Origin: Bispira polyomma
Taxonomy: Eukaryota
Assembly: GCA_965649765.1 (NCBI GenBank)
Contig: OZ287754.1
Location: forward strand, 37,944,001-38,008,000
Length of the DNA stretch: 64,000 nucleotides
Reading direction: 5' to 3'
Positions 1-61,166 of this stretch are shown here, piece by piece. The translations under genes were made by a program, and so were the position numbers. Under the pieces are notes generated by a model that saw only the letters and a program-made list of their open reading frames with translations, did no database searches and was not told the origin of the DNA. Numbering within the stretch: position 1 is the stretch's first letter; every line of letters starts with the position of its first letter.

Positions 1-705
1 GTTTAAGCCCTTCAAATGATACATCAAGGGGCTATAGCTTATAATAGTCAGCAGAATTTCAACTTTGCGGGGTAGATTTTAAGGTAATTATTCTAAATCT
101 GTCAAACAATGCTTTTAAAGATGCCTTAGCATCAATATTGCACATTAAAATCCATAATATAATAAAATACAATACATATTTTATCTTCTCAGTATCAGTA
201 TTTCTGAAATACTGGGGTGGCTATTCTACCTGAAAATAATATTGCAACATATTGTGATATGTCGGCCTTATTCAGAATATGTATTGCATATTGGTTCATA
301 TTACTTTTGCAAAAATTAAAGCGAGTTTTAAAGTCAACTGATTTTCTGCCCTTGCACAAAAGCTGGCACAGTAAAAATCAGAATCAGTGATCTTGGATGA
401 AACTGTAAACATAATACAAATTTGATTAATATGTAATTTATTCAGTGTAGATTGCATGCATTGGTTTATTTTTGATTCTGTTGTTGACAAATGTATTGTA
501 TGCTCTCAGACTTTATTTCCAGAATAAAAAGACATGAGCAATATTCAGATATTTTATGTAAAAATGATGTATCCCTTATGTATTGCATTTACAATTTCAT
601 ATTATAATTTATTTTATTGAATAATATATTGACATATAATGAATATTCAATATATTGTTGCAACCTTATAAAAACAGCTGCTGGCTCTGACAAGCTAGTA
701 CTTAC

Positions 706-12800: not shown

Positions 12801-15800
12801 TCTCCACTGACATACAACAAGGTCCTTATACATAACACCTCCCCCCTTGAAGAAAAATTTTGGAAGCCAAGGGGTTACAAAATTTTACATTGCACCAAGT
12901 ATAAGAGAATATACATACTGATGTTATAGCATTTCTTAGATCACTGTATTTTAAGTTACATAAGTAATATCCATAAGTAAGCATCTAAGTTTTACAAATT
13001 TATTTTTGAGTTGTTAACAGACAAAATGACCTTTAACTACAACTTCTGGATAGAGCATCAGCACAAATCTTATCCTTTCCTTCAACATGCTCTATTTGGA
13101 AACTGTATTCTTAGAAAATCAAATTCCAATTCAATAATCGCCTCTTTTTGTATTTTAATTTGTGCAAGAATACTAAAGGGTTGTGATCTGTGTACACAAT
13201 AGGTTTTGATTATAAAAATATATAGATATGAAAGTGTTAATGGCCAAGATGAGGGCTAAATGTTTCTTTTCTATTGTAGAGTAATTCTTTTGATGTACAT
13301 TAAATTTTTTCAAAAAATTAGAAATCGGATGTTCAATATCTTCATCATCAGTCTGCAGTAAAATTACACCTGCCCCAACATTACTGGCAACCACAGCTAG
13401 CCGGAATGGTCTACTGAAGTCTAGAGCAGTTAGTACACGCTCCAAACAGAGAACATTTTTTTTATATTTTATGCATTTTTTTGGGAGCTTAGTCAGTGGA
13501 GCAGTGACATCTAAAAAATTTTACAAAATATTCTATAATAACCTGACATTCCCAAGAACCTCATTAAGCCCTAAGTACACAACCTTTGCTTTTACAAAGT
13601 CATTTTTTGATAAAATCACAGCAAGGTTGGCTTGCTTGAGCCGAAACAGAACTTGTTCAAGTCTTTTGAAATGTTCTTCCCAAGTATCACTAAAGATGAC
13701 AATACCATCCACATACACTGTAACTCCTTCTTAATTCCTTAAACATATATTCGTTAGTCTCTGAAATGTAGCTTGGAAATTTATCATTCCAAATGGCATC
13801 ACCTTGTACTGATACAGACCATCGGGAGTTACATGAATCGCTTTTACTCAAAACATTAACCTTTCTATAGTCTGTGCAATATCTGATAGAACCATCAGGC
13901 TTCGGGACCAAAACACAAGAAGATGCCCAACTACTTTGACTTGGTTCATTTATATCTTTGTCCGACATGTATTGGATTTCTTGTCTTAATTTTTTATGTT
14001 TGATTGGGTTTACACGATACGGGTGCTGTTTGGCATTGCCAACATCAACATCATGCATGAGTACATTGGTCCTGTTAGGGGCATCAGGAAATACTGACTT
14101 ATACATCATGAGTAACTCACTAAGTGGGATCCTCCTATCTGGAGATACATGATTCAGTTTGGTTTTCAAATCAACAATAATGTCTGAATAACTCAACCTG
14201 ATTTTACATTTAACTTTAACATCAAGAGTGTCAGCCCATGCTTCATACTCCTGATTGTTGTCATTTTCTACATTACAGTCAGTAGCCATGACAGGCTTTG
14301 TCACACCCCTTTCAAAGTATGGTTTTACCATGTTTACATAACACGGTTGGGTTGACTTCTTTCTGTCCGTGGTTTCAATGACAGAATCCAGATCACCTAC
14401 TCTCTTTAATTTGTATGGCCCATGCTATCTGGCCTGTAACATGTTCCCTTGGATAGGTAATAACACTAAAACCTTCTCTCCCGGTTTAAAACACGGTTTT
14501 GCGACCTTCTATTATAAAGTTTTTTCATTTTTGACTGAGAATGTTTCAAATTTTGTTATGCTAGCTCACAAGCCTTTTTTAGCCTGCTTCTAACCTTTGG
14601 GACATAATCTAACAGGTTTAGGCTCTCACAGTTCTCAGATAACCATTTTTTTCAACAACTCGAGAGGGACTAAAGCCTAAAGACTCTTGCACTGATTCCC
14701 AAACTGCAAACAATAATAAGTACATGCCAGTCTTTCGCATTGTCTAAGCAATATGTCCTAATCATATTTTTTAAATTGAAATGGAACCTTTCAAGTACAC
14801 CTTGTGGTTCTGGATGATAAGCAATAGATTCGATCTGTTTGGCACCTAGCTAAAACACAACTTGCTGAAATAATCCTGACATGAAATTTGACCCTTGATA
14901 TGACTGATCTCCTTTGGTAAGCCAATTAAAGTAAAGAAATTGACTAAAGCTTTCGAGATTTATAGGGCTGTCATGTTAGTCAAAGGTATGGCTTCAGGGA
15001 ATCTGGTTGAGACACACAAAATCGTTAAGCGATATTGGTTTCTGGATTAAGTCTTTGGTAAGGGGCCTACACAATCAATTATCACCTTGCTGAATGGTTC
15101 CACAAATCCTGCAATGCGTTTTAAAGGAGCTACTGGAATCCTTTGGTTTAGTATTTCTACAACTTGACAAATGTGACAGTTTTACAAAATTCTACCACAC
15201 AGCGCCGGATCTGAGGCCAGTAGAAATGCTTGGTAATTTTGACATAGGTTTTATTGATGTCTAAATGGCCACCCATTGGAGACTGTCACAAAATGGCTTC
15301 ATAAGGTTTATTCTTTAAGCTAGTTCTGCCTGGTGAATTCTTAGTTTTTAATTCTGGTCTATGGTATTCTGTATGAAGTCATTGTGGGTTTACTATGGTT
15401 TTGATCAGTATGGGCTGTGTGTTCATACGTCACTGCACACAGCATTTTAGTGTGGAATTAGTATCTTAAGTTTTAGTTTTTTGGAAGCCACACTTTTGGC
15501 AGCACATGTTTTGAAGCTCCAGTCTGTTGTTTGAAGGAAACAGCATTGAAGTTATTAGCTTAAGATCGTTTCAATTCACACTAAAAATTATATCTTAGTG
15601 TTACATCTATTCATATCACTGGTATCTGATTTATAATACCCACTTTTACATATAAATACACAATAAATACATAGTTTAACTTATGTTGTATTTGCATAAT
15701 GGTTGTGTGGTGTTATGCTTAATTTCTAGTGCTGTTTATTTATTTTCAGCTGGTTTTAATGTGGGGAACTTGGTTTCCATGTTGTGAAGATGCTGTTATA

Positions 15801-16180
15801 ATGGTGTTGTGGTTTTGATTATATGGATCATTAACGCTGAGCATTTTTATCTCACTGGAGATATGGTTGTAGTTGAATGATCATCAAAGCTGAGGATTTT
15901 CATCTCGCTGGAGATATTGCTGTGTTTGAATTATGGTGGTGCTAACCATCATTAAAGGTGGACAGTGGTGATGTTTCTATGGTGTTAGATGATGGTGTTT
16001 ATATGAAGCAAGCCGCTGTGTTTGTGTTCCTGACATGTTGACATTACAAGCTGGACATTGAATTACAGTGAATTTGAACATTACATTAAACATTGAACTG
16101 TTACATTTTATTATAAATATATTTCTTTGTGTGTTTTGGGTAGACATATGTGATATGTGTTGTGTCATTTGATTTATGTG

Positions 16181-16219
<39 letters not shown>

Positions 16220-16257
16220 TGTGGTAGTGTGTATATGTGAATGAGTGTCATTTGATT

Positions 16258-16334
<77 letters not shown>

Positions 16335-19300
16335 TGTGGTAGTGTGTATATGTGAATGAGGGATGTGTTTCATGTTCACTCTATTTTAAAGTGTATTAGC
16401 TCGTGTTCTGACAAAAATTCCATGAATTCAGAGTGTGTATCATTTACCATACAAGCCTCATTCCGGCCCTGTGACATTTGGCGAGCTTGCCAGGATATTT
16501 TTTGAGGCTTTGGTAAATGATAACATATATTGTTGATGGGCTATATTGTACACAATATATAAACTTTATTTTGGATAAAGTTTTTGGATTGTCATATTTT
16601 GGATTTTTTTTTTGCATTTGGAATATAATTTGTCGGCTATTTTTTGGGACATTCCTGTCGCTCAAATTGTTGTACTCCGGATTTGGTGGTTGTAATTTTG
16701 TTGGAAAGTTAAGGTTGTTATCAAGTTTTTAGTTTACATGGTCGGCATGTTGCTTTAACATATCCAGTGTACAGTTTAAAGTGGAAAGTACGCACAGGAT
16801 TTCTTTTCCGTTACTTACCACATACTGGATTGAATGGAACATTATATGATTCGTTGAGTTGCGTATTGAGTTACCACAAACTTTTTACTGTCGACTAGTT
16901 ACTGTGCGTGAACAGGCTGCAGTAGAAAGAATATTTACCCTTAAATTGTCCATTTTGTTACTCTTCAATGATTTTTTGAAGATTTTTTTAATCAGTCTCA
17001 TTCTTTTTAAATGACACACTGATCATATTTCCTCTACTTGGGTGTTATAATTTTATCTTCCATGTTTAAACATACTTGATTCAGTCTACTTTATAAATCA
17101 TATAGGGCAGTGCTGATTTGAGTGTAAGTTTCCATACATTTTTTGGCATTGAAGGTTCAAAGCATTGGCAGTGATTGACAAATTGGTCTCCAATCTTCCG
17201 TAGTACTTGGTGATTTACTTATTTTTTTTACATTGTGTTTGATTTGCAAAGACAATTGACAAGAAATAGAGGTTTAGCTCTTCAGTTCACATTTCTTGAT
17301 TGATAGTTTTGTCATTTGTAAATAGTTTTTGTTGTATATACCAGCATTTATTAGCAAGGTTCTTTTAGCAAAGGTTTCATTCTTAGTACTCTTGATAAGA
17401 TGGACGTTGATGAGCTCCAATGGCTTCTAGCTTTAGGGAAAGAGATTGGTTTGGAAGGGAAGGATGGGAGAAAAACAACGTCAACGTGATCTGTAGTTAA
17501 CAAAACTGAGGCTTGAAAGTAGTACAGCTAGTCAGTTAGATCAATGTACTTCAGGCAAAATGCAAGTTTAGTTTAAGCTAGCTAAACTTCCATATTTTGA
17601 TAAAAACAAAGACAGTATCGATGCATACTTAACACACTTTGAGAAGAATCCACACAGTTTTGAAGACGGATAAAGAAGAGTGGGCTATCTACCTAGCTAC
17701 ATTACTGAAGGTAAAGCTCTTGAGGTCTATTCTAGATTGTCAAGTGAAGAATCAAACAAATATGATGTCTTGAAGATGGCTTTACTCAGAGGCTACCAAT
17801 TAACAGAAGATGGTCTGAAGAAGAGGTTTCACACCAGTTGTCCTGAGGTTGGTGAGTCTTGTACACAGTTCATGGTGAGACTTGCTAGTAAACTTCACCG
17901 ATGAATAGATGCCACTAAAATTTCAAAAATGTTTGATGGGTTAGCTGCTTTGCTAATAAAAAAATAGTTCGCAAGTGTGTGTGACCAATGCAACTTTAAG
18001 AAAATATTTAAAGTAATAACACAGAGTTAGCAGAATTTGCTGAGAGGTACATAGATGCACATGACATGATATCTTGGAGAGCAGATTCTTTCAAGAAAAA
18101 GAAAAAAACACAGAGAAAGTGAAAATCCAAAAGACAAATGGGAAAAATGTACAGTTCTACTTGGTATAATGGAAAGAAGGTAAGTTGTAGTGGAAAGATA
18201 GTCTGGTAAGTATAGCAGAAGACAGTGAAACTATGGTTTGAGGAATTTATTTAAATTCTGTACATGTTAGTAAATCTATATACAGGTAGGTGTAAAATAG
18301 GTATAAATTATTAAAATACAAGGTAATTTTAAAATCACCCATTACATGACAACACAAGCAAAAGCAAGGTAGTAAATAATACAGAGGATAAAACCTCACA
18401 AGCATTAAGCAGCAAGCTGGGAAAACCAACGTCTGAGGACTAAGCATTTGCCTAGCATACAACAGTACACCTTTATAACAATCAGCCCCTAAGGCCAACG
18501 TCGATCCAACACTATTCAACACAATTATGCCAAATGACATTACATCATACCAATACTATTCAATACAATTATGCCCAATGACATTACATTCAACATTTTA
18601 AATCATACCAATATTTAATCGTTAACTAGTAAATTTCCTATTTAATCCGGACTTATAAGCCGTATTATGCCTGCGCTAGCAGCCTTAATTGGAGTTTTTG
18701 GGAACCCGGAACTTACAGCACCGACTCGCCTAGCAGTGAGACGTCCTACCTCACAGAGCATTTCCCCCCTGGTAGCCCACACCAGAGGGTAGGTTATGAG
18801 GAAGGACCTAACACCACACAGTTCCGAGTTCAAAAAACTCCCACAAATCCAACCAAATTTAAGTGATTTCCTATCTTACAAAGATTTTCAGCAGGGCCCT
18901 TTTGGGTCCGCAACCAGAGATCTTCTTAACATAGTATGTGCTTAGTACCAAAAGTGGCCATAGCTAAGAAATGAACAATGAACATTAACTTATGGTGTGG
19001 TTAAGGGGAGGTGGGTGGAAAATGTACGTGTGTGTACTGCTGAATCCTTTTCCAAAATGGAAGATATTAGGACAGGAATGCAGAATTTGGGAGGGAAGAC
19101 CCCTAATTGGCTGGCCAGTTCACGGTTGGATGAATCATGCTACAGTTGTCGAATTTGCCCCTAGGGCTTAAAGTAGTAATACATTTTCCTTTGGTTGAAC
19201 TGAAGTAGCAGACCCCTATTGGGTCGTGCTATGCACAGTTCTACTTGGTATAATGGAAAGAAGGTAAGTTGTAGTGGAAAGATAGTCTGGTAAGTATAGC

Positions 19301-25300: not shown

Positions 25301-28300
25301 GGTTAGGCAGAACGAGAATTTGTCTTGTACTCATGACTTGGTAGCATTTGATTGTAGTTCTGGTTCCAAAGTTTTTGCCAGTAACGTTGAGCCTACCAAA
25401 AGTCTTTGTGCTTGTCCAATGCCAAATATTACTGAGGTTACATTGAATTGTGGGCACAAAATCCATGTCTTGAGTTCATGTATAAATAAGTTGCCTCCCA
25501 ATATGCCAGTTTTCAAAGGTTTTGTTGGTGACAAAGTTGTTGATGTATTGAGGGACACAGGATGTTCAGGAGTTGTAGTCAAGAAGGCACTTGTTAACCA
25601 GAAACAGTATAGTGGAAAAGTCCAGCGCTGTGCTTTCATTGATGGTTCAGTGCATACATTCCCCATAGCAGAAAATTATCTTGACACACTATACTACAAG
25701 GGTTATACTTGTGCAGTTGTGATATAGAGTCCTTTGAATCCTTTGATAGTTGAAAGTATTTCTGGTGTTGATGATAGTTCCTTAGCTTTGGTTGATTTTT
25801 CTAGATTGCAAAGAGAACAACAGTCCAAAAGTGTTTCTGTTTCTCAGGCTGTTATTACTCGTAGTCAAAAACAACATCAAACTGTTAGTAAAACTAAACC
25901 TTTGAAGGTAATGCCTAGTGAGGTTGAAGGTGTTAAAAGAAAGGACTTGATGTCTTTGCAATGTGAAGATTCGACTCTGAAGAAATGTTTTATTCAGGCA
26001 AAACAAAAGGTGAAACAGAAGAGTGGTCAAAATAACATGTCTTGGTTTAAGATTGAAGATGGCCTATTGATGAGGTATTATCAGTCTCAATAGGTTAAAT
26101 TTGGTAAAAAGATTAGTCAAGTTGTGTTGCCAAAACAACTTTGTCTTCAAGTCATGAAAATTGCTCATGGTGGTTTGTTTGATGGTCATTTTTTGATCTC
26201 GCAAGACATTAGGTCGAGTGTATGCAAATTTTGATTGGCCCGGAATCTATGGAGATGTCACTAGATTTTGCCAGTCGTGTGAGCAGACTAGTCCTGAAGT
26301 CAAGTTAACATATGAGTATGTTATGGATGTAAAAAAACGTTTGGAAGATACTCTAGAAATTGCAAAGGGTAACTTAGGTTCCAAAAGTCAGTCCTAAAAG
26401 CATTACTATGACAAGAGGGCAAAGAATAGTAAATTTTCTGTTAGAGATAAGGTCATCCTATTACTTTCAACAAGTGAGAATAAGTTACCAATGCAATGGA
26501 AGGGGCCATTTGAGGTGAAAGAAAAAATTGGTTTAAATGATAATAGAATATGTTTTGATAAATCCTAGGTTGAGTGTGAGGCAAAAACAGCAGATTGATA
26601 ATTTGTCAGATGAATTTTAGAATATTTTTACTGATGTTCTAAAAGGTACAAACTTGTTGGAACATTCTATTCCCTTGACAAGTGATAATCCAGTGTGTTG
26701 TAAACCATACCCGGTTCCCCTTTCAATGAGGCATGTTATAAAAGATGAAGTTTGCAAGATGTTGGAACTTGGTGTCATAGAGCCATTTACTGGTAACTAT
26801 GCATCACCAATTGTTCTAGTGAATAAAAAGGATGAATCCATACGTTTTTGCATTGACTATAGGAAGCTGAATTGTGTTTGTTATTTTGATCACATGCCTA
26901 CTGCTTTACCAGAATGCTTGTACTCTAAACTCTCTTCTGATTCTGTCTTTTCAAAGCTAGATTTGAGCAAGGGTTATTGGCAAATACCATTTAAACTAGA
27001 CGATCGTGATAAACCACATTCATCACTCCAGGAAATGGCATGTTCAGATTCAAAGTTGTTCCATTTGGTCTGGTTACGTCTGGTGCAAGCTGCCACAGGT
27101 TGATGCATATTTTGTAGATGATATTTTGGCTCACACTAAAGACTGGTCAGGTCATTTGATGGTGTTGAGGAAATTGTTTGAAGTTCTAAGAGAAGCAAAC
27201 CTAGCTGTGCGTCCTTCAAAGTGTATGTTTGGGTTTGAGAAGGTAGAATTTCTAGGCCATATGGTTGGTCAAAATAAAGTGAATCCTTGTGCAAAGAAGG
27301 TTAAGAAAATCAAAAAGGCAGTTCATCCACAGAATAAGAAGCAGCTCAGATCTTTTCTGGGTCTCATTGGGTACTATAGAAGGTTTATCCCAAATTTTTG
27401 CTGCTAAGGCTTCTCCACTAACAGATCTTACGACGAAGGGGTGTCCAAATATATTAGTTTGGGAGAGTATCCATCAAGAAGCTTTTGAACAGCTGAAATC
27501 TGCTTTGATGACTAAGCCAATTCTGAAATTACCTGTTGAAGACAAACAGTTTATTGTTCAAACTGATACTTCTGCTACAGTAATTGGTGAGGTATTGCTT
27601 CAGGAACATGATATAATCTTATTCCCAATATGCTATATCAGCAGAAAGTTACAGAAACAAGAAGAGCATTACTCAGCCATAGAAAAGGAGTGTCTTGTGA
27701 TTATCTGGGCAATTCAAAAATTGCAGATGTACCTGTATGGTAAAAAGTTTGTTTTACAGACAGATCACCAGCCATTGGTTTGTCTAACTACAACCAAAGT
27801 TGCAAATAGTAGACTCATGAGATGTAGCCATATCACTTCACTATCATGTCACTGAAAATGTTTTTGGTGATTAAATGAGTAGATTAGAATGTCTAAGTGT
27901 ATGGGTAAAGCATAAAACTTATGAGTGATTTGAAGATGAAAACATGGTTTTCACTTCAAAAGGGGGGCTTATGTCACAAAGTGACTTCATAAGGTTTATT
28001 CTTTAAGCTAGTTCTGCCTAGGGTCGTTATGGTTTTTGGATTCTTACTTTTTAATTCTGGTCTATGGTGTTCTGTATGAAGTCATTGTGGGTTTACTATG
28101 ATTTTGATCAGTATGGGGTGTGTGTTCATGCGTCACTGAACAAAGCATTTTAGTGTGGAATTAGTATCTTGGGTTTTAGTTTGTTTGAAGCCACACTTTT
28201 GGCAGCACATGTTTTGAAGCTCCAGACTGTTGTTTGAAGGAAACTTCCAGCATTAAAGGTATTACCTTAAGATTGTTTCAATTCACACTAACATGGTGTT

Positions 28301-31300
28301 TGATTAACATTACACACTGTTACATATATATACACAATAAATACATAGTTAACATAGTTTAACTTATGTTGTATTTGCATAATGGTTGTGTGGTGTTATG
28401 CTTAATTTCTAAGTGCTGTTTAATTATTTTCACCTGGTTTTAATGTGGGGAACTTGGTTTTCATGTTGTGATGATGCTGTTGTAATGGTGGTGTGGTTTT
28501 GATTGTATGGATCATTAATGCTGAGCATTTTCATCTCACTGGAGATATGGTAGTAGTTGAATGCTCATCAATGCTGAGGATTTTCATCTCGCTGGAGATA
28601 TTGCTGTGTTTGAATTATGGTGGTGCTGACCGTCATTAAAGGTGGAGAGTGTTATATGAAGCAAGCCACTGTGTTTGGGTTGACATTACAAGCTGGACAT
28701 TAAATTACAGTGAATTTGAACATTACATTCAGCATTGAAATGCTGCATTTTGTTGATAAATATATTTCTTTGTGTGTTTTGGGTAGACATATGTGATATG
28801 TGTTGTGTCATTTGATTGATGTGCATGTATATATATATATATGTGGTGTGGTTGTGTATATATATGTAAATGAGGGATGTGTTTGTGTTTTGAAACATGC
28901 ATATATATATATATATATTTCATGATCACTCTATTTTAAAGTGTATTATAAAGACCGGAAGTGCGCATCGACCACAAAAGCCGTCAATGCGCAATTCGTA
29001 ACCGTACTTTATCTGGGAGAATAGATCACGCATAAATAGTTCCGTCAGTAGCTACAAAAATAGTTAACAGTGAGTTGGAAATATCTCAGTGCCCTACCCA
29101 AGTAAACTTGTATATGTGGTGTAACACAGGAAAATAACAAGAAAGGAGGTTTTGGGGAGATTAGCTTTAATTTTACTATGTTATCACTAATAATTATTTA
29201 CATACTGTGTAGTAAGGGGCCACCTTAGCCCCAAGAGTTTAGGAGAAGTTAAGAGTTTAAGGTGACCTTAGCCTGAGGACAACAGGCCAAAGTGACCAAA
29301 GGGATTTTTAAAATTTAAGGGGGGGGGGCCCTAGCTTGAAAGTTAGGGCTCCCTAAGATTGAGTTTAAGGTTAAGGGTAGCCCCAGCTTGGAAGTCAGGG
29401 TTACCAAAGATTGAAATTTTTAAGGTTGAATTTAGGGGTACCCTAACTTGAAGTTAGGGTACCCTTAGAATGAGTTTAAATGTAAGAAAAATGGTAACCT
29501 TAGATTTTATTTGAGGTTGCCAAAAGAGATTTAGTAAAGATGTAAAAGGATTAAATTAGTATAAGGTAAGGTGGCCCCAAAATATTTATATTTAAGCATT
29601 ATTATATTTTATTTGTATATAATGTATGTAAATAAAGCCCCCAAAAAGGGTAAAATCGAAGTTAAAAACCATGGTACTAGCTAATAGACTAAAAACTGTG
29701 CTGCTCACTAATAAAGTCCATGAGAGTAGCAAAAACTCACTAGACCTTAAACCCCTAGCATATACAATTACCATGGCTTACAGAGAACATGCATACAGAC
29801 ATGAGCAAAATATAAATCGAGTAGCTGTTGTCTTCCAGGAGGGCAGTGCTTGCTTGCATAGAGTTCATTCCTGACTGAGCCACAAGAGATCCATGAATCC
29901 CGTATGCCTGAAACTACATGCTTACAGTTCAACATGTGATCACAAAGCTACCAAATGCACCTGCACACAACATGATGTGCAATGCATTGTAACGTTATAC
30001 TAGCAACCACACCGGTTGCGAAATACAAACATTTTACAAGTCCAGTCCTCGTTGTAACGAGGAACAACATTATTAGTTATACTTTACATGCTACTATAAC
30101 AACAAAAAGGATGCCACTTCACATACTGTATACGTATAAATCATGCTGCCTGACGCAGGATATTTGACAACATTATCAATTTGATATACAACAAAGGGAA
30201 CACCCTGAAGACAATAAAGTAACGTACAATTGATAACAACAAAAGGAGACGCAACCTCAGCAGCAAGCAGCTACCTACAAGAAAGTGTTGGCCCCTAAGG
30301 GCCCTGGTGTTACCCAGAAAATATGGGAGATAAGTCACCTGAGGCCCCAGAAGGCCCCCAAGGGCGAGGAACTGTGAAGGCCAGCAGTAATGCATAACTC
30401 GTGGGCCCACAGCCCCGAGCCCCCACCCCCCTGCGCCAAGGTGTAAAGTGAGACTTCAGGAACCCCAGGGACTGCATGCAGCACTCCAGGGACGGACGCA
30501 TAGCTGAAAACTACCGAGGAAGTAGTAGGGGCAAGTGGGTGGGTAATGTAAAATATTAAAGATGGCGTTGTTGCCTACATGACTTCAAAAGTATAAGTGA
30601 GGATTCTAGCTAAAAAGCGGGAAACAGAGGTTAATTAGTACACAAATAGCCAATTAGGAGAGGGTTTAAAGGGCATGAACCCAAGGAGAGAAAATACTAG
30701 TAGCACTGAACTTGCTATCCCCTACGGTGCTACCCCGCACAGTGCCCTACCCAAGTAAACTTGTATATGTGGTGTAACACAGGAAAATAACAAGAAAGGA
30801 GGTTTTGGGGAGATTAGCTTTAATTTTACTATGTTATCACTAATAATTATTTACATACTGTGTAGTAAGGGGCCACCTTAGCCCCAAGAGTTTAGGAGAA
30901 GTTAAGAGTTTAAGGTGACCTTAGCCTGAGGACAACAGGCCAAAGTGACCAAAGGGATTTTTAAAATTTAAGGGGGGGGGCCCTAGCTTGAAAGTTAGGG
31001 CTCCCTAAGATTGAGTTTAAGGTTAAGGGTAGCCCCAACTTGGAAGTCAGGGTTACCAAAGATTGAAATTTTTAAGGTTGAATTTAGGGGTACCCTAACT
31101 TGAAGTTAGGGTACCCTTAGAATGAGTTTAAATTTAAGAAAAATGGTAACCTTAGATTTTATTTGAGGTTGCCAAAAGAGATTTAGTAAAGATGTAAAAG
31201 GATTAAATTAGTATAAGGTAAGGTGGCCCCAAAATATTTATATTTAAGCATTATTATATTTTATTTGTATATAATGTATGTAAATAAAGCCCCAAAGCCC

Positions 31301-34300
31301 AACTAGGAAGTAGTAGAAGGGGCAAGGAGGGCCTTGAAGGTGAGGGCGACTTGGTCAGATGCATTGTGATTCTGTACAATATATTTCCACACACAATCAG
31401 ACGTCCAAGTGCCATGGCTCTGGATATCTTGAATTGGGACATTATTGTTGAAGGCCCAGGTGGCACCTGAACGCCTGAAGGTGTGGAAAGAAATGTTAGA
31501 TTGCTGGAGGCCAAGACGTCTCAAAATTTGGGTGAGATTTTGCCTAGCTTGGGTGTCAATCATTGGAGACCATTTATGGTGTTTTTTAAACTGAAAGAGA
31601 GGAGAATTTTTGTGTCCAGGAGTAATAGCCAGCAAGGCCCTTGTGGCAGCCACCGGACAGAGACTAGAGCCACTTAGGCTCGGTATTTTAATAACTTTTG
31701 CTACATTTTTTGACTGCATTGTTTTAGACCACTTTATTATGAGGTGGAGGCCAGGGGAGGCAAAAAGTACGTCCCCCCGGGCCAATTGGACTAGTGGAGA
31801 GAATTGAGAGACAGCATGTGGAAGTAAGTTAGATATTCTAAGAAAAGAAAAGAAGGCAATGAGGTACAGAGCCTTGAAGATCTGCCCCATGTACATGCTG
31901 TCACAGATTTGAGTAATTTGGAGCAAGAGGGGAATGTCAATAATAGCGTTAATTTTAGCCCTGAAGGGGCTATTGAGTGTAAGAGCTTTTTGGTAATACT
32001 TAATTCTAGGATCTGCAAATGCAGAGACGTCAAGGCCATAGAGGGCCAATTTAGCTTTAACTGCCGAAAGGTAGTTTGCAATGGAGGGGGAAGAGACCTG
32101 ATTAACCACTAATACTTCTAAGAAAGCCAATATAATAAGGGGGGAGATATTTTGAGGCCTGACCTGAGCAAAACTACAATAGGCCAAGAATATCCTAAAC
32201 ATATTTGTATAGGCCCTTTCAGTGGCTGGTCTAAAGGCCTGATGGGCTCTGTATGAGGCTTGTGTAGCAATCTTTCTTAGCTTGGAAGGTACATCTGCAA
32301 TTAGATAGACCAATCTATTTCTAACATTGTGTCTTTTACTGTTACCCATTTGGGATTCGGTACCAGTTGTAGTAACTTGTCCTTATTACTGGCCGTGATC
32401 TGCCATCTGGAGAGGAGATCAGCCACTGTATTAAGTCTACCTAAAATGTGAATGGTTTTGAGACTGATGTCATGGGAGGCTACGGCCATGAAGATGTTTC
32501 TGGCAATAGCTGCCAAAGTGAGGTCTTTAGTTTTGCCTGAATTTAGGATAGTGACCACGGCAGCATTGTCGCATTGCAATATTAGCCTCTTACCTGCCCA
32601 GGCTGACTTCCATAGCCTAATGGCAACTAGGATGTTTAACATTTCCAGATGAACTATCGTGAAATCTAGGTAGCCTAGAGGAATTTGGAATTGGTATACT
32701 TCATCATTACAACGGCCTCCCAACCCTTGGAGGCACGCATCCAACTGAATACAATCGGTAGTGGGTTTGTGTTCAAAGAAGGCTTTTCCATTAAATGTTG
32801 GTAAAAAATTTTTAAACCAATTTACATCCTGATGAAACTCAGGTGTGAGTTTTACTTTTTGATCCGAGCCTACAGATCTTAGGACGTCAAGCATTCGGTT
32901 TAAGAAAGCACGTGAAACTCGAACACATTTGGATACATATAACAATTTACCTAGCAGTGACTGCAACTCCCTCTTACTGCAGCAGTGTCTTAATTGCCAG
33001 TCTTGCACAAGTGTGTTTATTTCTAGTAGCTTTTTATCTGGCAATGAGATTGTCAAGTCATTTGTGTTAACTAAGACCCCCAGACACGTTACTGACGTGC
33101 TGGGGTGAACAAGTTTCTTGTGACTAATCGCAAAGCCTAGTTCCTGGAGTAAGTTTAGCAATATATCAAATGAACGTTTACTTTCTATGACGTCACCATA
33201 GCCGATTACGTCGTCGATATAATTGGTGACGTCATGTCCGTGACGTTTCATGATGTACCTGACGGCGTCACTTAATCGCTGAAAAATTGCGCTCCCGTGC
33301 CGAAAACCAAATGGGAGGCAAGAGTCGACATAGTATTTGTCTAATTTCAAGCCTAGTAGATTGTAATCGGCTGGATCCATTTTCACGTGACGAAATGCCC
33401 GACTTACGTCAATTTTATATAGGAGCGTTCCACGTCCCATGCGACAGATTTTGTTTGTAATTGTGTCAATTGTGGGAAGGGTTAATGCAAACGCAGTACC
33501 GAGATACTTATCCTTGACTACAGCCGAGTTCACAGAGTTGCCATGAGGAAAGCTTAAATCTATGATAACGCGCCTGTGTGCGGCACCTGGTTTTTCCCTA
33601 GTCATAAAGGGAGAAATATGGAGGTTTTTTATGGGGGAGTTGTTTATCCCAGTAGTCAGTCAAGTACCTTTCCCATACATCTGGGTTCAACTCAGATTTC
33701 AATTGAACTTGTGCCCCCATATAATTTGGGTAGTTGTCCTTCTTAATGTGAGTGTGTAATTCTAACAGAGACTTATCCGACTTTACTCGTTTATCCGTTT
33801 GGGGAACTCGGAGGTCATTTAGCGGAATAAACCCATACTTATCTGTAGTTTGAGTATCCCATTGCTGGAACTGAGGCTGGTTGGAAGCCTGTTTTATAAG
33901 TTCCCTGTTTTTCGATTTAGTTTGTAGCTCTAGGTCATATTTGTCTGATTTTATTCCCCCAGTAGCTCGAGAGAGTCTTTTAAAACCTTGACCTTGGTTA
34001 CAAGTATCTGGTAAATGTGTGACAGAGTTGTCACTAGTGTGCATATAATGGTCATTGTCACTCAACGGGGAAAACCTATTGTGAGTGGAAACGGGCCATT
34101 TGCCCTGAATGTCTAATTTTGTGATTTCCAGCTTTTGGCCAAATTGATCACCTTTTGTTGGAGGGAGTTTACCCATTTTTGACATTACATTATGCCTCTG
34201 TACACTTGTGAAAGGGGAAGCATCTTTTGTGAAAGTTTTAACACTCACTCTGTGGCCCCGTTCATGCTTTGTGGACCCCTCTGAAATTTGGTTGTTATTT

Positions 34301-37300
34301 ACACATGGTGAACATTTAACGTGGTGACTTTGCCACCTCTGAGTGACATTGGCACTTTGTACAGAAAACTTTATGGCAGCAGACCTGGAGGGAGCCTTTC
34401 TTTTAACCACATCAGCATAAGATCTATTTACAAATTTGGCCCAATCTGCCCTCCAATGTGTAGTGCCAGTATTACATTTAAGACTATTATACACGGTTCT
34501 ACTAGGACAACCTTTAGAAATATTTACAACTTTTTGTGCAAGTTTTTTCTTGACCACCTCTTGTGTGGAGGAAACATGGGGTGGCACTGCATCACTGCAG
34601 TGCCTTACTCGTTTTTTAACGGATATTTTTTACAGTCTTTTGCAGGGTGGGGGTAAGACCTCCCATTTTGAAAGCATTGGTTACACACATGACTATATGA
34701 CACACCTTTGAATTCGTGATCCCCTTTTTGGGGGCAAGTACCCCTCTGGAAGTACCTACATGGGATGGACTTCTCATGACTTTTCCTGGTGTTGGTTTGA
34801 TAATTACTACTTGCAGTGTGGCTGACAACCCTTTGGGCATGAGCCCGTCTAATCCTGTCCAACTTGTGGGCATCTCCCCAGGTTACCTTACCCTCTTCCA
34901 TTTTACAGAGTACAACGGCATGGCTAGCCTTAGCCGAAGTCCAGGAAAATTCATGAGCGTCCTCCATGAGGTCAGTGAGATAGTCCAACATTTGGTTTTT
35001 AACGTCTAAATTACTTTCATCTCTAGCTATGCTGGCAAAACCAGAGACCCACTGGGCCATTGACGCGTCATACGTAACTCGTGTTTTGTTTTGTCCCCCT
35101 AGTATAACGTTCTGAGGCCAAGCCACCTTATTCTTCACCCACAGAGTGTCGGGACCCCCTCTTTGAGATTTTGACGTACCTGACTCGTTAATGGACACCA
35201 ATTCCTTAAGACGTGAATCCACTGCAGTCTGTAGGGAGTCGGATGTACGCAGTGTGTGTAGCGTCGGGACCAGTAGCTCAGAAGTGGTTTGGTCCGCCTG
35301 TCTAGGTTGGGCTGCACTCCCCGGGCTCGACGCCGTCAAAGCCTGGGCTCCATGTGAACTGCGATAAACTTGCTGCTCAACTTGGGTCATACGCCCACTT
35401 AATGCTTTGAGTTCAGTCAAAATTTGTAAATTTACGTCGGCAGCAGTTACACCATCGCCAGTCACAGAGTTCTGCTGGGAGGTTCCCACACCGGTATGCA
35501 TTTTACAGTTTTCGTCAACGGGCTTAACATGACTAGTATCACACTTGTGACAGTAATATTGTTTCCTTGGGGCCATAGCCTCTGAATAATATAAGAACTC
35601 GTGGCTTTGATACCTGCAACTATACTAAAGGAACTGTAACGCTATAATCTGATTTGAATTATGTAATCAGGCAAATAGCCGTGAATTGGATGCAATATAA
35701 TTGATTTGACCACGTTCCTTTACCACCGCTCAAACGAGCATATAATCGCAGGACTCAAAGTAGAGTAAAACACAGGAATCCAGCACAAGCACTGCAGATC
35801 AGTTCCTCCTTAGTGTGTAGCACCACTTAGTGAATCATTTGTTGCATTTCTTGTTTCCATCACACAGATAATAAAATCAGTGAAGTAAAAATAAAACACA
35901 TAAAAGTAAAATAATGTAAAATATTAAAGATGGCGTTGTTGCCTACATGACTTCAAAAGTATAAGTGAGGATTCTAGCTAAAAAGCGGGAAACAGAGGTT
36001 AATTAGTACACAAATAGCCAATTAGGAGAGGGTTTAAAGGGCATGAACCCAAGGAGAGAAAATACTAGTAGCACTGAACTTGCTATCACCTACGGTGCTA
36101 CCCCGCATATTATTTGCTTTAAAATATATTATTGTCAGTCTTTATAATAGAAATAAAGTACACGGGCTTGTACTTTATTGGCGAATCAAGGACAGCCTTC
36201 CAGCATAATGGACTCGGGCCTACCGGCCCTCGTATATTCGCCAATAAAGTACTCGCCCTTGAACTTTATTTCTACATTAATTCAGAGTGTGTATCATTTA
36301 CTGTAGGAGCCTCATTCTGGCCCTGTGACAAAGACCCATGAGCTAGCCTGAATATATCATCTTGGTACATTATTGGTACTACCATCTGATGTAGTATTGA
36401 CCAGTTCTCAGATGTAAGGACATTTTGCAGCCTCCACTTTTGCATAAGCACACCATTTTTGTGTGCCTAAAATTATGTGAAGGACTTCATATTGAAACCA
36501 TTTTAGATAGGAAACTTAGATAGTTTTAAAACATATTCCAAAGATGCATTGCCAATGGCCATCATTCAATTCTATATTTAAATCTTCATGCCATATTCTT
36601 TTCGATTCCATTTGAAGCAGAGATAATCAGTTCTTTCCAGAACTCATTTGATGTCATATTACTTTAATATTTACACCATTGTATCCCCAATTTAGAAATT
36701 TTTGAAACTTAAGAGTTTTCTCAAAAAAGATAAGTCAGTAAGAGGATTTCGTTTTTAAAATTCTTTTCATCCAAGACAGTTTTAAAGAGTAAATGAAATT
36801 TTCCAAATTAACCATTCTCAGTCCGCCTTCTTGATAATCTTGTGTAAGGTAGATACGTTTGATTTTGTCTGGTTTATCTCCCCACAGGAAGAAAAACAAT
36901 AGTTTGTTAATGTCTTAAATAAATTTTTTATTTGGTGATGAAATAACTGAAAACAGATGATTAAATTTAGAAAGAATGAAAGTTTTGATAATTGTGATTT
37001 TTCCAAGAGGAGTCAAGTTCCTTTTTTTCTAATTAATTGGCAGTTTCTTTGACCTTTCTAAAGCAATTGTGTAGTTTGTATTACCTATTTTTGCTAAATC
37101 CACTGAAAATATTATTCCCAACAGGTCAAAATGAGTAGTACCCCAATCCAATTTGAATTCTTCTAGATCAACTGTTATTCCCATACTTTCAATATTTTGA
37201 TTAATTAGATAGACTAAAATTTGACCACATATAAGAAACAGATATGGGACCATGGGGTCCTCTTTCAATTTTTATGAATTCAGACTTTATGCCAACTTGT

Positions 37301-40300
37301 ACAACAGATGCCGCCTGTATATTAGTGTTCAAAATTTTGATCCACCAAATAAAGCTTTTCTCAAAACCAAGGAACTTCAAAACGTTATATAGAAATTTCC
37401 ACAAAACTGAATCAAAGACTTTCTCGGAGTCAATTAACATCGATTTTTTCTTTACTTCAACGTGATTCATTATATCGTATATTAATTGAGTTGATTCACC
37501 AATACAACAACCTTATATAAATCCAGTTTGAGTTTCACAAATTATAGAATGAAGAACCATTTTTAGCCTGTTAGCAATGACGCTAGATGCAAGTTTATAT
37601 AATACACATAATAATGAGTTATGACGCCAGTGTTTTAAAAATTCTCTTGGCTTATCACCCTTTGGGATGCAATTATTTAGTGCCTGACGAACTGTTATTG
37701 ACATTTTTCCCTTTCTGTAGCTATTGTTAAGAGCATCAAGTATCAAAAAATTTAATCTGCATCAAAAAACTTTGAAAACCATCAATGCCAGGGGTTTTGT
37801 TATATTTCAATTTTTGTTGAGCGTTATTAAGTTCATTTGGCATTATTGGTCCTTCAAGTGTTAATGACTCAGAATGTGTTAATCTATTTACAGGTTCATT
37901 CTTTAAAAGTTCAGAAAGGTTTACCTCTGTTATTTGATCCAACTCACTGGGCTTACAATCAGTACACTTTAGAGCAAAAACAAGATCTGAGTCTAGTCCA
38001 TTACTACCATAACAGAGACCTGGAATGCAAAGGCAGATATGGCTGTGATTATACACAGTACATTGAAAAACTTATTGATGACATTTTTGATAATGGTGAT
38101 CCAACTGGGGTCGATAATAATACAACCAGGTTGGACACCACTGCTAGAGTCGGGCGACCAAGACAGTGAATATTTTGCTAGATTGATTGACAACCACAAG
38201 AGGTACAACTCCTCTACAAAAAGTAAGGCTACTGACATTTATGACAACACTAAAGATGTGAGTTTTAATAAGTTATCAAATACAGATTTTGAATTTATTG
38301 GCCTGATAGGGAACCAATTGCAATTACTACTGTTGATAATATGCTAGAAATAGGTAAAACCATTAGAAACACAGTTGTTCCCAATTTTAGGGCCGCTAGA
38401 ATTCCACTTAGTTATGGCCTCAATGTTACGACTTGGGAAGACTTCCTTAAGGGCCACCATCATAAGATCTCATTGCAATACCCTAAATTTGGTTTTCCCG
38501 TCTCGCTTGAAAACCCACAACTACTTAATAATTGTGAAACAAGTCAAACAATCATCACTGTGCTATGCAATATCCCTAGGAGGTTAACAAATACTTGAAA
38601 AGGAAAAGTCTAAGAGTGTCACATTGGGCCCAGTTCCAAAAATTACATATACACATTTCCACACTTCTCTACTAACTAGACCTAAGGACATTGACAAGCG
38701 TAGAATTATTCTCAACTTATCCTATCCTCATGACCTTTCTTCAAACAGTCAGGTTCATAGTAATACTTTTAACAAAACTAAGTTTGCCCTTAGATTTTCT
38801 ACTATCCTACAGCAATGAGAAATACTAAGAAACCAGTTACATTCAAAACATATGTTTCCCGTGCCTTTAGAAATCTCAGGTAGATCCTGCTGATGCGATC
38901 GAATTGGGCATAAATTGGAACAATTATTCTTACGTCGATGCTTCCGTAGCATTCGGCTGGGCGCACAGTAGCGCAGCGTTTCAGCTTTGCTCAGACATTG
39001 TAGCTAATAATATGAATTCACAGGTCTATACACTCTTTTGTTACATCGATGATTATGCTTGTGTTTGTACAAAAGATAAAGCTGAGAAAGGCTATGGCCT
39101 ACTTCATGACATACTTCTGAAGCTGGGGATACCCTATAAAAATGAAAAATCTGTCCCCCCTGATACTTTCACTATATTCCTAGGCATAGACATTGACATT
39201 GAAAAGGGTACCATTAGTATCAACCAAGAAAATATCAACCAAATTTACCAAGAACTACAGAATATTAGTGATAAATCCTGGGTATCAAGGACTAAAAACC
39301 AGTCCATGTTAGGAAAACTCCTTTATGTGCACAAATGTGTTCGTCCTGCCAAAATTTTCATAAACAGACTCCTGGCTGTATTTAGGGACAACCCTCATGC
39401 TAAGAGATTTAAAATCACTCACAACATAAGACAAGATATTGCTTGGTTCATATCTTTTCTTCCTTATATAACGGTATCACATATATTGCACCTAGGGACA
39501 TCAATTACTTACAAGAATTTCATCTAGTTGCCTGCCTGACGGGTTTTGGCGCCATTGGAACAAGGAAGTGTATGCTACTACCATACATAATATCTACAAG
39601 CAATCACTCAACTGGAAATGTTTAACATCATCATAGCGTTAAAGTTATGGGATAAGAACTGGGCTCACCAGAAAATCACAATATGGTGTGACAATCTGGC
39701 TGTGGTGTTAGTTGTTGACACTAATAAGACTAAGGATTCCTTTCTGGCTATGTGTATTAGGAACATATGGCTGTTAGTCTCTACTTATCACGCATTTACT
39801 CTGCTAACCCTCCCAATGCAAGCATAATAAAAGAATTAAAAGACCACCACTGAAGACATACCTTTAACCCAAACTATATTATATAATCACAGGTGCAGCA
39901 CCATCCACCATTCCCCTGGTCTTGGCAGCTGTACAGCGACTTGACACAGCACTCAGGCCGTCCACCACCAGTGCTTATAACTCACAGTTTAAGAATTATC
40001 TAGCTTTCTTACACTATCCAGGCCTACAGCAGGTCTCAGTACACTCTGTTCTAGCATTTCTAAACTCGAAACAGTATTTCTACTCGAGTAATGAACAATC
40101 ATGTGGCTATGTTCCTTAACTTTAAACCCCAGAAAAAAGGGATTTTTGACAAACAGTTACTTTAAAATATATTAAGGAATTGCTCTATCTTGAACGACCC
40201 TTATTGTATGGGGCTGTATTTCTTGTAGCATTCTTCGACTTTTTAAGAATGTCGAAAATCGCCCCTCACTCTAGAAGCAAATTTGATCACACAGACATCT

Positions 40301-61055: not shown

Positions 61056-61166
61056 TTTGTACAAGCTACGCAAAGAGGAAATGGAGCACTTCCCCCTCTG
61101 GGAATTAAACCTTCTTGACGTCTTCTGGGATGACACTCTTCTTGTTGTCCAATTTCCTTCTTAGTC

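What the first reader, a model, noticed from the sequence alone, without database searches (positions are those of the whole stretch)
28948..36274. Non-coding element with two inverted loxP-like sites (10-8-10), targeted by a YR retrotransposon
Seen: each 39-bp arm at the right end contains AATAAAGTAC-ACGGGCTT-GTACTTTATT or AATAAAGTAC-TCGCCCTT-GAACTTTATT, i.e. 10-bp inverted repeats around an asymmetric 8-bp spacer with a shared GGGC core. The two sites face each other around a small gggcc-tacc-ggccc hairpin. The left end has related half-sites (ataaagac..gtactttat). About 22 bp of LTR is missing at the insertion and there is no TSD. Established: repeat-spacer-repeat is the architecture of tyrosine-recombinase sites (loxP, FRT, dif). 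Inference: a non-autonomous YR-mobilised (Crypton-like) DNA element, which may also have attracted Ngaro B, inserted about 40 bp away.
Basis: partly seen in the sequence, partly recalled or inferred. Interest (0 to 1): 0.7.

Follow-up and report, generated by a model that had tools for sequence, protein, structure and literature searches.

The report
Mini transposon with internal end copy
This is a 0.3-kb non-coding jumping-DNA element in an animal genome that carries a back-to-front copy of its own two ends joined together; it probably borrows a recombinase to move, but the 'loxP pair' and the idea that it attracted a retrotransposon are not supported.

Summary
The described letters are there: 39-bp arms (35 of 39 complementary), one perfect and one 9/10 '10-8-10' palindrome, and 22-25 bp of LTR missing. 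The loxP reading is weak. Such palindromes arise about 0.6 times per window by chance. The spacers match at only 5 of 8 positions in either orientation, and both sites lie inside the unit.

That junction (ATAAAG cores facing across 7 bp) is the better recombination-site candidate. TA lies at both ends, so 'no TSD' is not established.

Ngaro B is young and has an intact recombinase, but it inserted 54 bp from the spacer, its junction shares at most 5 nt with the sites, and 0 of 3 other Ngaro flanks carry the core.

Best reading: a non-autonomous recombinase-moved (Crypton-type) element, about 0.45. Rivals: mini-DIRS, two TA-MITEs, Helitron2. No second copy was reachable and no eukaryotic DNA collection could be searched, so membership is untested.

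The parts
28944..28945 (.). TA at the left boundary (short direct repeat or duplicated target)
   Evidence: sequence; same TA at 36148-49 and 36273-74
28946..28955 (+). left end of the unit; half-site with ATAAAG core 2 nt inside the TA
   Evidence: 28944-28955 is the perfect reverse complement of 36138-36149
28962..28993 (.). imperfect inner hairpin of the left part
   Evidence: palindrome scan; DNA fold
29004..29012 (-). second half-site, pointing back at the left end
28946..29086 (+). left part of the non-coding unit (no frame over 50 codons in the whole unit)
   Evidence: absent from the 5' LTR; frames
29087..36107 (-). Ngaro B, a split-direct-repeat YR retrotransposon inserted into the unit without TSD; a passenger, not part of the unit
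   Evidence: A1/A2 195 of 196 and B1/B2 554 of 557 identical; junctions
29087..29644 (-). Ngaro B repeat B2
30544..30739 (-). Ngaro B repeat A2; B1/A2 junction at 30739/30740 is the retrotransposon's own joined-ends site
30740..31296 (-). Ngaro B repeat B1
31303..32382 (-). Ngaro B tyrosine recombinase frame, 359 aa, R182, H300, R303, Y334 present
   Evidence: Pfam PF00589 E 1.7e-06; invariant in 6 of 6 aligned proteins; catalytic role assigned from knowledge of the R-H-R-Y tetrad
32301..33659 (-). Ngaro B reverse transcriptase/RNase H frame, 452 aa
   Evidence: Pfam RVT_1 E 1.3e-11, RVT_3 E 0.0013
33598..35624 (-). two overlapping upstream frames (343 and 339 aa), gag-like by position only
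   Evidence: no Pfam match
35912..36107 (-). Ngaro B repeat A1
36108..36274 (+). right part of the non-coding unit
   Evidence: absent from the 5' LTR
36138..36186 (-). internal inverted copy of the unit's two ends joined (ICR-like): 12 bp for the left end, 39 bp for the right end, overlapping on TA 36148-49
   Evidence: 45 of 49 positions
36140..36158 (.). two ATAAAG cores facing across a 7-bp asymmetric spacer; candidate recombination junction
   Evidence: 1 of 2 such arrangements in the window
36216..36229 (.). small GC-rich hairpin between the arms
36236..36274 (+). right arm and right end, holding site 2 (36243-36270, 9 of 10 paired) and the terminal TA
27972..36330 (+). 3' LTR of a decayed gypsy element (27972-28945 and 36275-36330) that hosts the unit
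   Evidence: TG...CA ends, 869 of 935 aligned columns identical to the 5' LTR, RT and RNase H upstream
15284..16476 (+). 5' LTR of the same gypsy element; the unoccupied comparison site
   Evidence: flanking 5-mers match at 4 of 5

Best explanation
The unit is a non-autonomous DNA element moved in trans by a tyrosine recombinase of Crypton type. Shown: it is a 306-310 bp non-coding insertion in a gypsy LTR, has TA at both ends, repeats an ATAAAG-core half-site 7 times, has asymmetric ends (core 3 nt or 4 nt from the TA), and carries an inverted internal copy of its two ends joined. Inferred: the recombinase binds the ATAAAG half-sites. The site that is cut and rejoined is the end-to-end junction, two cores facing across 7 bp that include the TA, and it forms when the element circularises. 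Integration needs only TA (or ATT) microhomology with the target, which could also explain loss of 22-25 bp between two such microhomologies. The 10-8-10 palindromes are extra binding pairs, not crossover sites. The internal junction copy either records one module inserting at the end of another, or splints the two ends in a folded single strand. Ngaro B landed later and by chance.
For: Joined ends equal the inverted stretch 36138-36186 at 45 of 49. 3 of the 4 arm mismatches fall in the 8-bp spacer (P = 0.022), as expected if half-sites are constrained and spacers are not. A fold with both ends paired to the internal stretch lies 0.3 kcal/mol above the minimum (-55.3 against -55.6). YR sites are inverted 11-13 bp repeats around 6-8 bp; Cryptons use short terminal direct repeats as recombination substrates; non-autonomous animal Cryptons of 353-709 bp exist and outnumber their partners (PMC3212892). 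An active CryptonF recombines a terminal motif with a near-identical target and still gains copies (PMC9977147). Recalled, from no call and untested: non-autonomous Crypton families of fish and marine invertebrates in Repbase/Dfam have a similar layout.
Against: No second copy in the window, GTDB genomes (0 matches), plasmids or phages; these collections are mostly the wrong place to look, but mobility rests on one occupied and one empty LTR. No Crypton-type YR gene was seen among the 18 window frames scanned. The exact terminal repeat is 2 bp, not the 4-6 bp reported for Cryptons, and animal Cryptons were reported to have no terminal repeats, direct or inverted. The junction half-sites are 6-9 bp, shorter than 11-13 bp. 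The same letters fit two TA-flanked MITEs exactly, and fit Helitron2 and DIRS in part.
Confidence: 0.45

Rival explanations
1. A miniature non-autonomous DIRS-like retroelement. Its RNA is reverse transcribed in trans; the internal stretch acts as the ICR that brings the cDNA ends together; a DIRS recombinase integrates the junction.
For: [quoted passage not shown] ATT at 28945-47 and AAT at 36146-48 fit the commonest DIRS junction. The ICR is essential and DIRS-1 RT can act in trans (PMC7192593). AATAAA at 36243 lies about 25 nt before the right end.
Against: No inverted terminal repeats: outer ends match 8 of 40 in register, 12 of 40 shifted by one, against 66-316 bp in DIRS1-like elements. 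The ICR-like stretch is 49 bp against 85-130 bp. The right-hand ATT (36276-78) is 2 nt out of register. The YR retroelements whose repeats were resolved in the window (Ngaro A and B) are split-direct-repeat type.
Confidence: 0.17
2. Two related MITEs of a TA-targeting DDE transposon family side by side: X (28946-36147 without Ngaro; 10-bp TIR) and Y (36150-36272; 37-bp TIR), sharing the middle TA. The palindromes are subterminal transposase binding sites.
For: Formally identical to the observed letters: TA at all three boundaries and inverted repeats on each module. Sizes fit MITEs of 0.05-1 kb.
Against: Needs two insertions at one TA by families with related but offset ends (core 3 against 4 nt from the TA). 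A clean TA duplication does not explain the 22-25 missing bp. The ends do not look like usual Tc1/mariner ends (recalled).
Confidence: 0.15
3. A non-autonomous Helitron2/Helentron: 5' ATIR at 28946, 3' ATIR at 36138-47, site 1 as the 3' hairpin, ending near 36180; the rest is a secondary inverted duplication.
For: ATIR of 8-15 bp within 0-2 bp of the 5' end, a 5' T, part of the ATIR pairing downstream (28948-53 with 29007-12), and a 3' ATIR just before a hairpin about 30 bp from the end all fit PMC3627910.
Against: Leaves 36180-36274 unexplained, including an arm that mirrors the first to the last base and 7 bp beyond the hairpin. The 5' pairing is 6 bp over a 53-nt loop. The hairpin stem is AT-rich, unlike typical Helitron stems (recalled).
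Confidence: 0.12
4. One reading: the two 10-8-10 palindromes are a working loxP-like pair, and Ngaro B's recombinase was drawn to them.
For: Geometry fits YR sites; half-sites are better kept than spacers; chance of a hit on the unit is 1.6-2.2%; Ngaro B is young with an intact YR.
Against: Spacers 5 of 8 in both orientations; crossover 54 bp from the spacer; no shared run over 5 nt with Ngaro B's junction; 0 of 3 other Ngaro flanks hold the core, including that of a relative of B ending near 48140; geometry near chance.
Confidence: 0.05

Closest known systems
Non-autonomous animal Cryptons (CryptonA-1N1_OL, CryptonA-1N2_OL, CryptonI-1N1_RPro; Crypton-N1_SSa, CryptonA-N2_SSa, Eulor5/6) (PMC3212892, PMC5753468)
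   Same: Size class (353-709 bp listed for the first three), non-coding, no long TIR joining the outer ends, animal host.
   Different: The first three were reported without terminal repeats; here there is TA at both ends and an internal inverted copy of the joined ends. Their sequences could not be compared: Fig. 1c of PMC5753468 is not held and it has no readable supplement. A similar layout in the salmon and Eulor families is recalled only.
DIRS1-like retrotransposons (internal complementary region) (PMC3266345, PMC7192593, PMC5633606)
   Same: Internal stretch complementary to both extremities, in the same order, near the 3' end, with a 2-3 bp overlap; a short motif shared by both ends and both halves.
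   Different: No long inverted terminal repeats, no RT or YR gene, 0.3 kb against 4-6 kb, ICR-like stretch 49 bp against 85-130 bp.
loxP/FRT/dif-type sites
   Same: Inverted AT-rich half-sites around an asymmetric 6-8 bp spacer.
   Different: Half-sites 10-11 bp with one mismatch in site 2; the two spacers differ at 3 of 8; neither site lies at an element boundary.
Helitron2 / Helentron non-autonomous elements (PMC3627910)
   Same: Short asymmetric inverted repeats, 5' T, hairpins near both ends.
   Different: The element runs about 125 bp past the 3' repeat in a long hairpin whose far arm mirrors the near arm to the last base.
Ngaro/PAT split-direct-repeat YR retrotransposons (for the insert) (PMC6681497)
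   Same: A1-coding-B1-A2-B2 order, overlapping frames, RT/RH then YR, no TSD.
   Different: About 900 bp of unique sequence lies between A2 and B2 (29645-30543); no methyltransferase or hydrolase domain was seen in Pfam. No tree was built, so Ngaro against PAT is not settled.

Membership tests
Crypton (non-autonomous) | ends shared with an autonomous YR-only element | not testable with these tools
   no eukaryotic DNA collection to search; no such gene among 18 window frames scanned
Crypton (non-autonomous) | 4-6 bp terminal direct repeat, no true TSD | tested here: inconclusive
   exact repeat is TA (2 bp); ATTA (4 bp) under shifted limits; the empty LTR differs by 22-25 bp
Crypton (non-autonomous) | no long TIR between the outer ends | tested here: met
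   8 of 40 in register, 12 of 40 shifted
Crypton (non-autonomous) | multicopy, dispersed | tested here: inconclusive
   1 copy in 64 kb; rest of the genome not available
DIRS1-like | ICR complementary to the start of the left end and the end of the right end, near the 3' end | tested here: met
   45 of 49 positions; shorter than reported ICRs
DIRS1-like | inverted terminal repeats (66-316 bp) | tested here: not met
DIRS1-like | same trinucleotide (mostly ATT) at both ends, complementary to the ICR junction | tested here: inconclusive
   ATT 28945-47 and AAT 36146-48 fit; right ATT 36276-78 is 2 nt out of register
DIRS1-like | RT/RH and YR frames | tested here: not met
   longest frame in the unit is 50 codons
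loxP-type site pair | inverted half-sites around a 6-8 bp asymmetric spacer | tested here: met
   frequency near chance
loxP-type site pair | matching spacers in the two partners | tested here: not met
   5 of 8 direct, 5 of 8 inverted
loxP-type site pair | bound and cut by a cognate recombinase | not testable with these tools
   needs a bench assay
TA-targeting MITE pair | TIRs with flanking TA on each module | tested here: met
   10-bp and 37-bp inverted repeats, TA at three boundaries
TA-targeting MITE pair | TA duplicated relative to the empty site | tested here: inconclusive
   the comparison LTR carries 22-25 extra bp and 12 other gaps
TA-targeting MITE pair | TIRs shared with a DDE transposase element | not testable with these tools
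   no genome-wide search possible
Helitron2 | 8-15 bp ATIR within 0-2 bp of the 5' end, 5' T | tested here: met
Helitron2 | 3' ATIR 20-30 bp from the 3' end, before a hairpin | tested here: not met
   about 125 bp from the end defined by the LTR comparison; met only if the element is taken to stop near 36180
Ngaro/PAT (the insert 29087-36107) | split direct repeats A1-coding-B1-A2-B2 | tested here: met
Ngaro/PAT (the insert 29087-36107) | RT/RH and YR, no integrase, no TSD | tested here: met
Ngaro/PAT (the insert 29087-36107) | placement in the Ngaro clade by RT/RH tree | not tested
   no named reference proteins were at hand

The most novel reading that the evidence does not exclude
The internal inverted copy of the joined ends is a self-splint. 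On a displaced single strand the unit folds into a dumbbell in which both ends pair with 36138-36186 and rebuild a duplex junction, so that one recombinase strand exchange releases a closed single-stranded circle while the other strand keeps the element. That would be an ICR working in a DNA transposon without reverse transcription, a eukaryotic parallel to folded single-strand integron sites, and a route to the unexplained copy gain of Cryptons.
Probability: 0.12. Interest if true: 0.72.

Novelty: new member of a known kind. Interest (0 to 1): 0.3.

Why it matters
How animal Cryptons are cut out and inserted is unknown. Their ends were reported as featureless (PMC3212892), and the only active Cryptons described gain copies by an unexplained route (PMC9977147). 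A 0.3-kb element that shows its own end-to-end junction gives a concrete candidate substrate and a structural bridge to the DIRS ICR. As it stands it is one copy of a small repeat of a kind that is probably already in repeat databases. It is not a natural loxP pair and not evidence of retrotransposon targeting.

Tried and rejected
Structured RNA: 0 Rfam matches at gathering score in the window. At E up to 1 the right part gave 2 matches far below gathering score (MIR399 23.1 against 57 bits; ceN89 23.9 against 48), which any long hairpin gives; the left part gave none. SINE: no tRNA gene and no A or B box under loose recalled patterns. Coding: longest frame 50 codons.

Other copies: low-stringency BLASTN of both halves in the window gave only self-hits and 3 matches of 13-18 nt. 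Two pattern scans of GTDB genomes, hoping for animal DNA carried along in assemblies, gave 0. Plasmids and phages gave 0 for the right half; the left half was not searched there. Viral and metagenome contig collections stayed unchecked.

Literature: 10 searches. In the listings and the passages read I saw no description of an ICR-like junction copy in a Crypton or other small non-coding element; most listed papers were not opened. The one 'nonautonomous DIRS' listing (Chlamydomonas v6 paper) was not opened. The motif search gave 1 unrelated paper. Kojima's review of eukaryotic TE diversity is not held, and Repbase Reports, Dfam and bioRxiv supplements were not visible; these may already describe the layout.

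The YR homologue search (362 hits among 2,586 candidates, best 63% identity, none of the 120 listed named) did not name the host.

Rejected: the missing 22-25 bp as proof of a YR mechanism (6 other gaps of 10 bp or more between the LTRs); the 25 bp in the 5' LTR as an excision footprint (only a 7-nt match to the unit seen by eye, expected by chance). No structure or complex prediction was run, since no candidate recombinase for the unit is known.

Full report
Setting. The window is repeat-rich, AT-rich eukaryotic DNA (GC 26-47% per kb). A neuropeptide-precursor-like frame at 58350-61160 points to an invertebrate animal (inference from a recalled motif). The finding lies in three nested layers. 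Outermost is a decayed gypsy element with LTRs at 15284-16476 and 27972-36330, identical at 869 of 935 aligned columns. Inside its 3' LTR sits a non-coding unit, 28946-29086 plus 36108-36274. Inside that sits Ngaro B, 29087-36107, whose split repeats differ at 1 of 196 and 3 of 557 positions. It encodes RT/RNase H and a 359-aa tyrosine recombinase with R182, H300, R303 and Y334 invariant in 6 of 6 aligned proteins. It is therefore much younger than the LTR pair.

The observation. The arms (35 of 39), the two palindromes, the small hairpin and the left half-sites are as described. The right-hand hairpin is far beyond chance (z = -9.1, 0 of 200 shuffles). The 10-8-10 geometry is not. After (TA)n-type arms were dropped (108 rows to 4; 144 to 20), 12 simulated windows gave 0.58 perfect and 13.2 near-perfect 10-(6..8)-10 palindromes each, and Ngaro B's B repeat holds a perfect 10-7-10 of its own. 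Site 1 is equally 11-6-11 and site 2 pairs at 9 of 10.

The first 12 bp of the unit (28944-28955) are the perfect reverse complement of 36138-36149, which overlaps the first arm on TA 36148-49. So 36138-36186 is the inverted copy of the right end joined to the left end, at 45 of 49 positions. Only 61 of 20,000 simulated 310-mers carry such a complement anywhere, and the chance of it abutting the arm is about 5e-4 even with loose boundaries. The ATAAAG core occurs 7 times in 310 bp against 0.34 expected; no other 310 bp holds more than 3 (the motif was picked after the fact). At the internal junction two cores face each other across a 7-bp asymmetric spacer that contains the TA. Joining the outer ends rebuilds exactly this arrangement, not the 10-8-10 one. 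A fold in which both ends pair with the internal stretch is within 0.3 kcal/mol of the minimum.

The loxP claim. Three of the 4 arm mismatches fall in the spacer (P = 0.022), which fits protein binding at the half-sites. But the spacers match 5 of 8 in either orientation and the 28-mers 24 of 28 in either, so the pair has no defined orientation. Cre/Flp-type exchange needs matching spacers (established knowledge). Both sites are internal, so exchange between them could not move the unit.

The targeting claim. Ngaro B crossed over 44 bp before site 1, 54 bp before its spacer and 40 bp before the internal junction. Its own B1/A2 junction shares at most 5 consecutive nt with any of these, and 10 of 40 positions with its target. 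The window holds at least three other YR-retroelement pieces. The 3 flanks examined, both of Ngaro A and one of a relative of B ending near 48140, hold 0 cores in 200 bp each; the ends of the copy at 38.7-40.8 kb were not located. On the other side, a chance hit on a given 310 bp has probability 1.6-2.2%. That figure is after the fact, and the other located ends also lie in or beside repeats.

Mechanism. Shown: insertion into an LTR, no coding capacity, repeated half-sites, TA boundaries, an internal copy of the joined ends. Inferred: a recombinase supplied in trans binds the half-sites, the ends meet in a circle, and the junction recombines with a target sharing TA or ATT. Two nearby microhomologies (ATT at 16395-97 and ATG at 16422-24 of the comparison LTR) could account for the lost segment. 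A DNA route of Crypton type is most likely (0.45), a DIRS-type cDNA route less so (0.17). Two TA-flanked MITEs side by side give the same letters (0.15), and Helitron2 fits the first 240 bp (0.12). One copy cannot separate these.

Comparison with print. PMC3212892 (parts 1-2 of 7 and supplement 1): YR sites are 11-13 bp repeats around 6-8 bp, Cryptons have 4-6 bp direct repeats, animal Cryptons showed no terminal repeats, and non-autonomous forms of 353-709 bp exist. PMC9977147 (passages): an active CryptonF recombines a terminal motif with its target and gains copies. PMC3266345, PMC7192593, PMC5633606, PMC6681497 (passages) and PMC8969392 (passages, supplement search and supplement 1 part 8) define the ICR and split repeats. 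The unit meets the ICR layout but lacks ITRs and genes, so it works like an ICR element at most and is not filed as DIRS. PMC3627910 (passages) defines Helitron2. PMC5753468 (passages) links Eulor5/6 to salmon non-autonomous Cryptons, but its alignment figure is not held. PMC8869645, PMC13465315, PMC8498967 and bioRxiv 10.64898/2026.09.21.753150 were seen as passages and gave background only. I recall, from no call, that non-autonomous Cryptons of fish and marine invertebrates in repeat databases have a similar layout; this is why I rate it a new member of a known kind. Ten searches showed no description of the junction copy in such elements in what I read, but Repbase Reports, Dfam and most subscription papers are outside the library.

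Limits. No second copy was found in the window, GTDB, plasmids or phages, and Rfam gave nothing at gathering score. No eukaryotic DNA collection could be searched, so copy number, true ends and the partner enzyme are all open.

Verdict. The unit is real and structured. It is probably an ordinary non-autonomous recombinase-moved element with one mechanistically suggestive feature. The loxP pair and the targeting claim should be dropped unless genome-wide counts revive them. Interest 0.3. The boldest open reading, a self-splinted single-strand excision, has probability about 0.12 and would merit about 0.7.

Noticed in passing
window 58350-61160 (-): 936-aa open frame with about 25 copies of a 63-bp unit. 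It reads as a neuropeptide precursor: short Trp-initial peptides ending Phe-Gly or Trp-Gly between dibasic sites, resembling the MIP/allatostatin-B (Wamide) family (recalled label). The Pfam OspE hit has 0 passing stretches and looks spurious.
   Followed up: partly
window about 18150-25062 (-): Ngaro A, a second young split-direct-repeat element (repeats 216 of 217 and 191 of 192 identical) inside the gypsy interior. Its junction shares the central letters with Ngaro B's, and its target matches the junction at 4 of 5 nt left of the crossover.
   Followed up: partly
window 23467-24738 and 20419-23466 (-): Ngaro A's first two frames are in the same phase, separated by a single stop codon: read-through or a point mutation.
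   Followed up: no
window 38699-40752 (+) and 47395-48163 (-): A degenerate RT plus YR copy, and a 5' fragment related to Ngaro B that ends beside a repeat shared with 43137-43236. A weak match to Ngaro B's first frame also lies at 10200-10367.
   Followed up: partly
window 29645-30543: About 900 bp of unique sequence between Ngaro B's A2 and B2 repeats; Ngaro A has a similar gap of about 680 bp.
   Followed up: no
window 29433-29467 and 31085-31119: A 35-bp palindrome inside Ngaro B's B repeat, itself a perfect 10-7-10, among short degenerate repeats.
   Followed up: no
window 15284-16476 and 27972-36330: The gypsy LTRs carry an internal 53-bp tandem pair and a (TA)n tract that differs greatly in length between them.
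   Followed up: partly
window 6553-6893/46303-46632, 43942-44085/44416-44560, 45644-46289/49946-51402: Further pairs of unclassified interspersed repeats, 72-89% identical.
   Followed up: no
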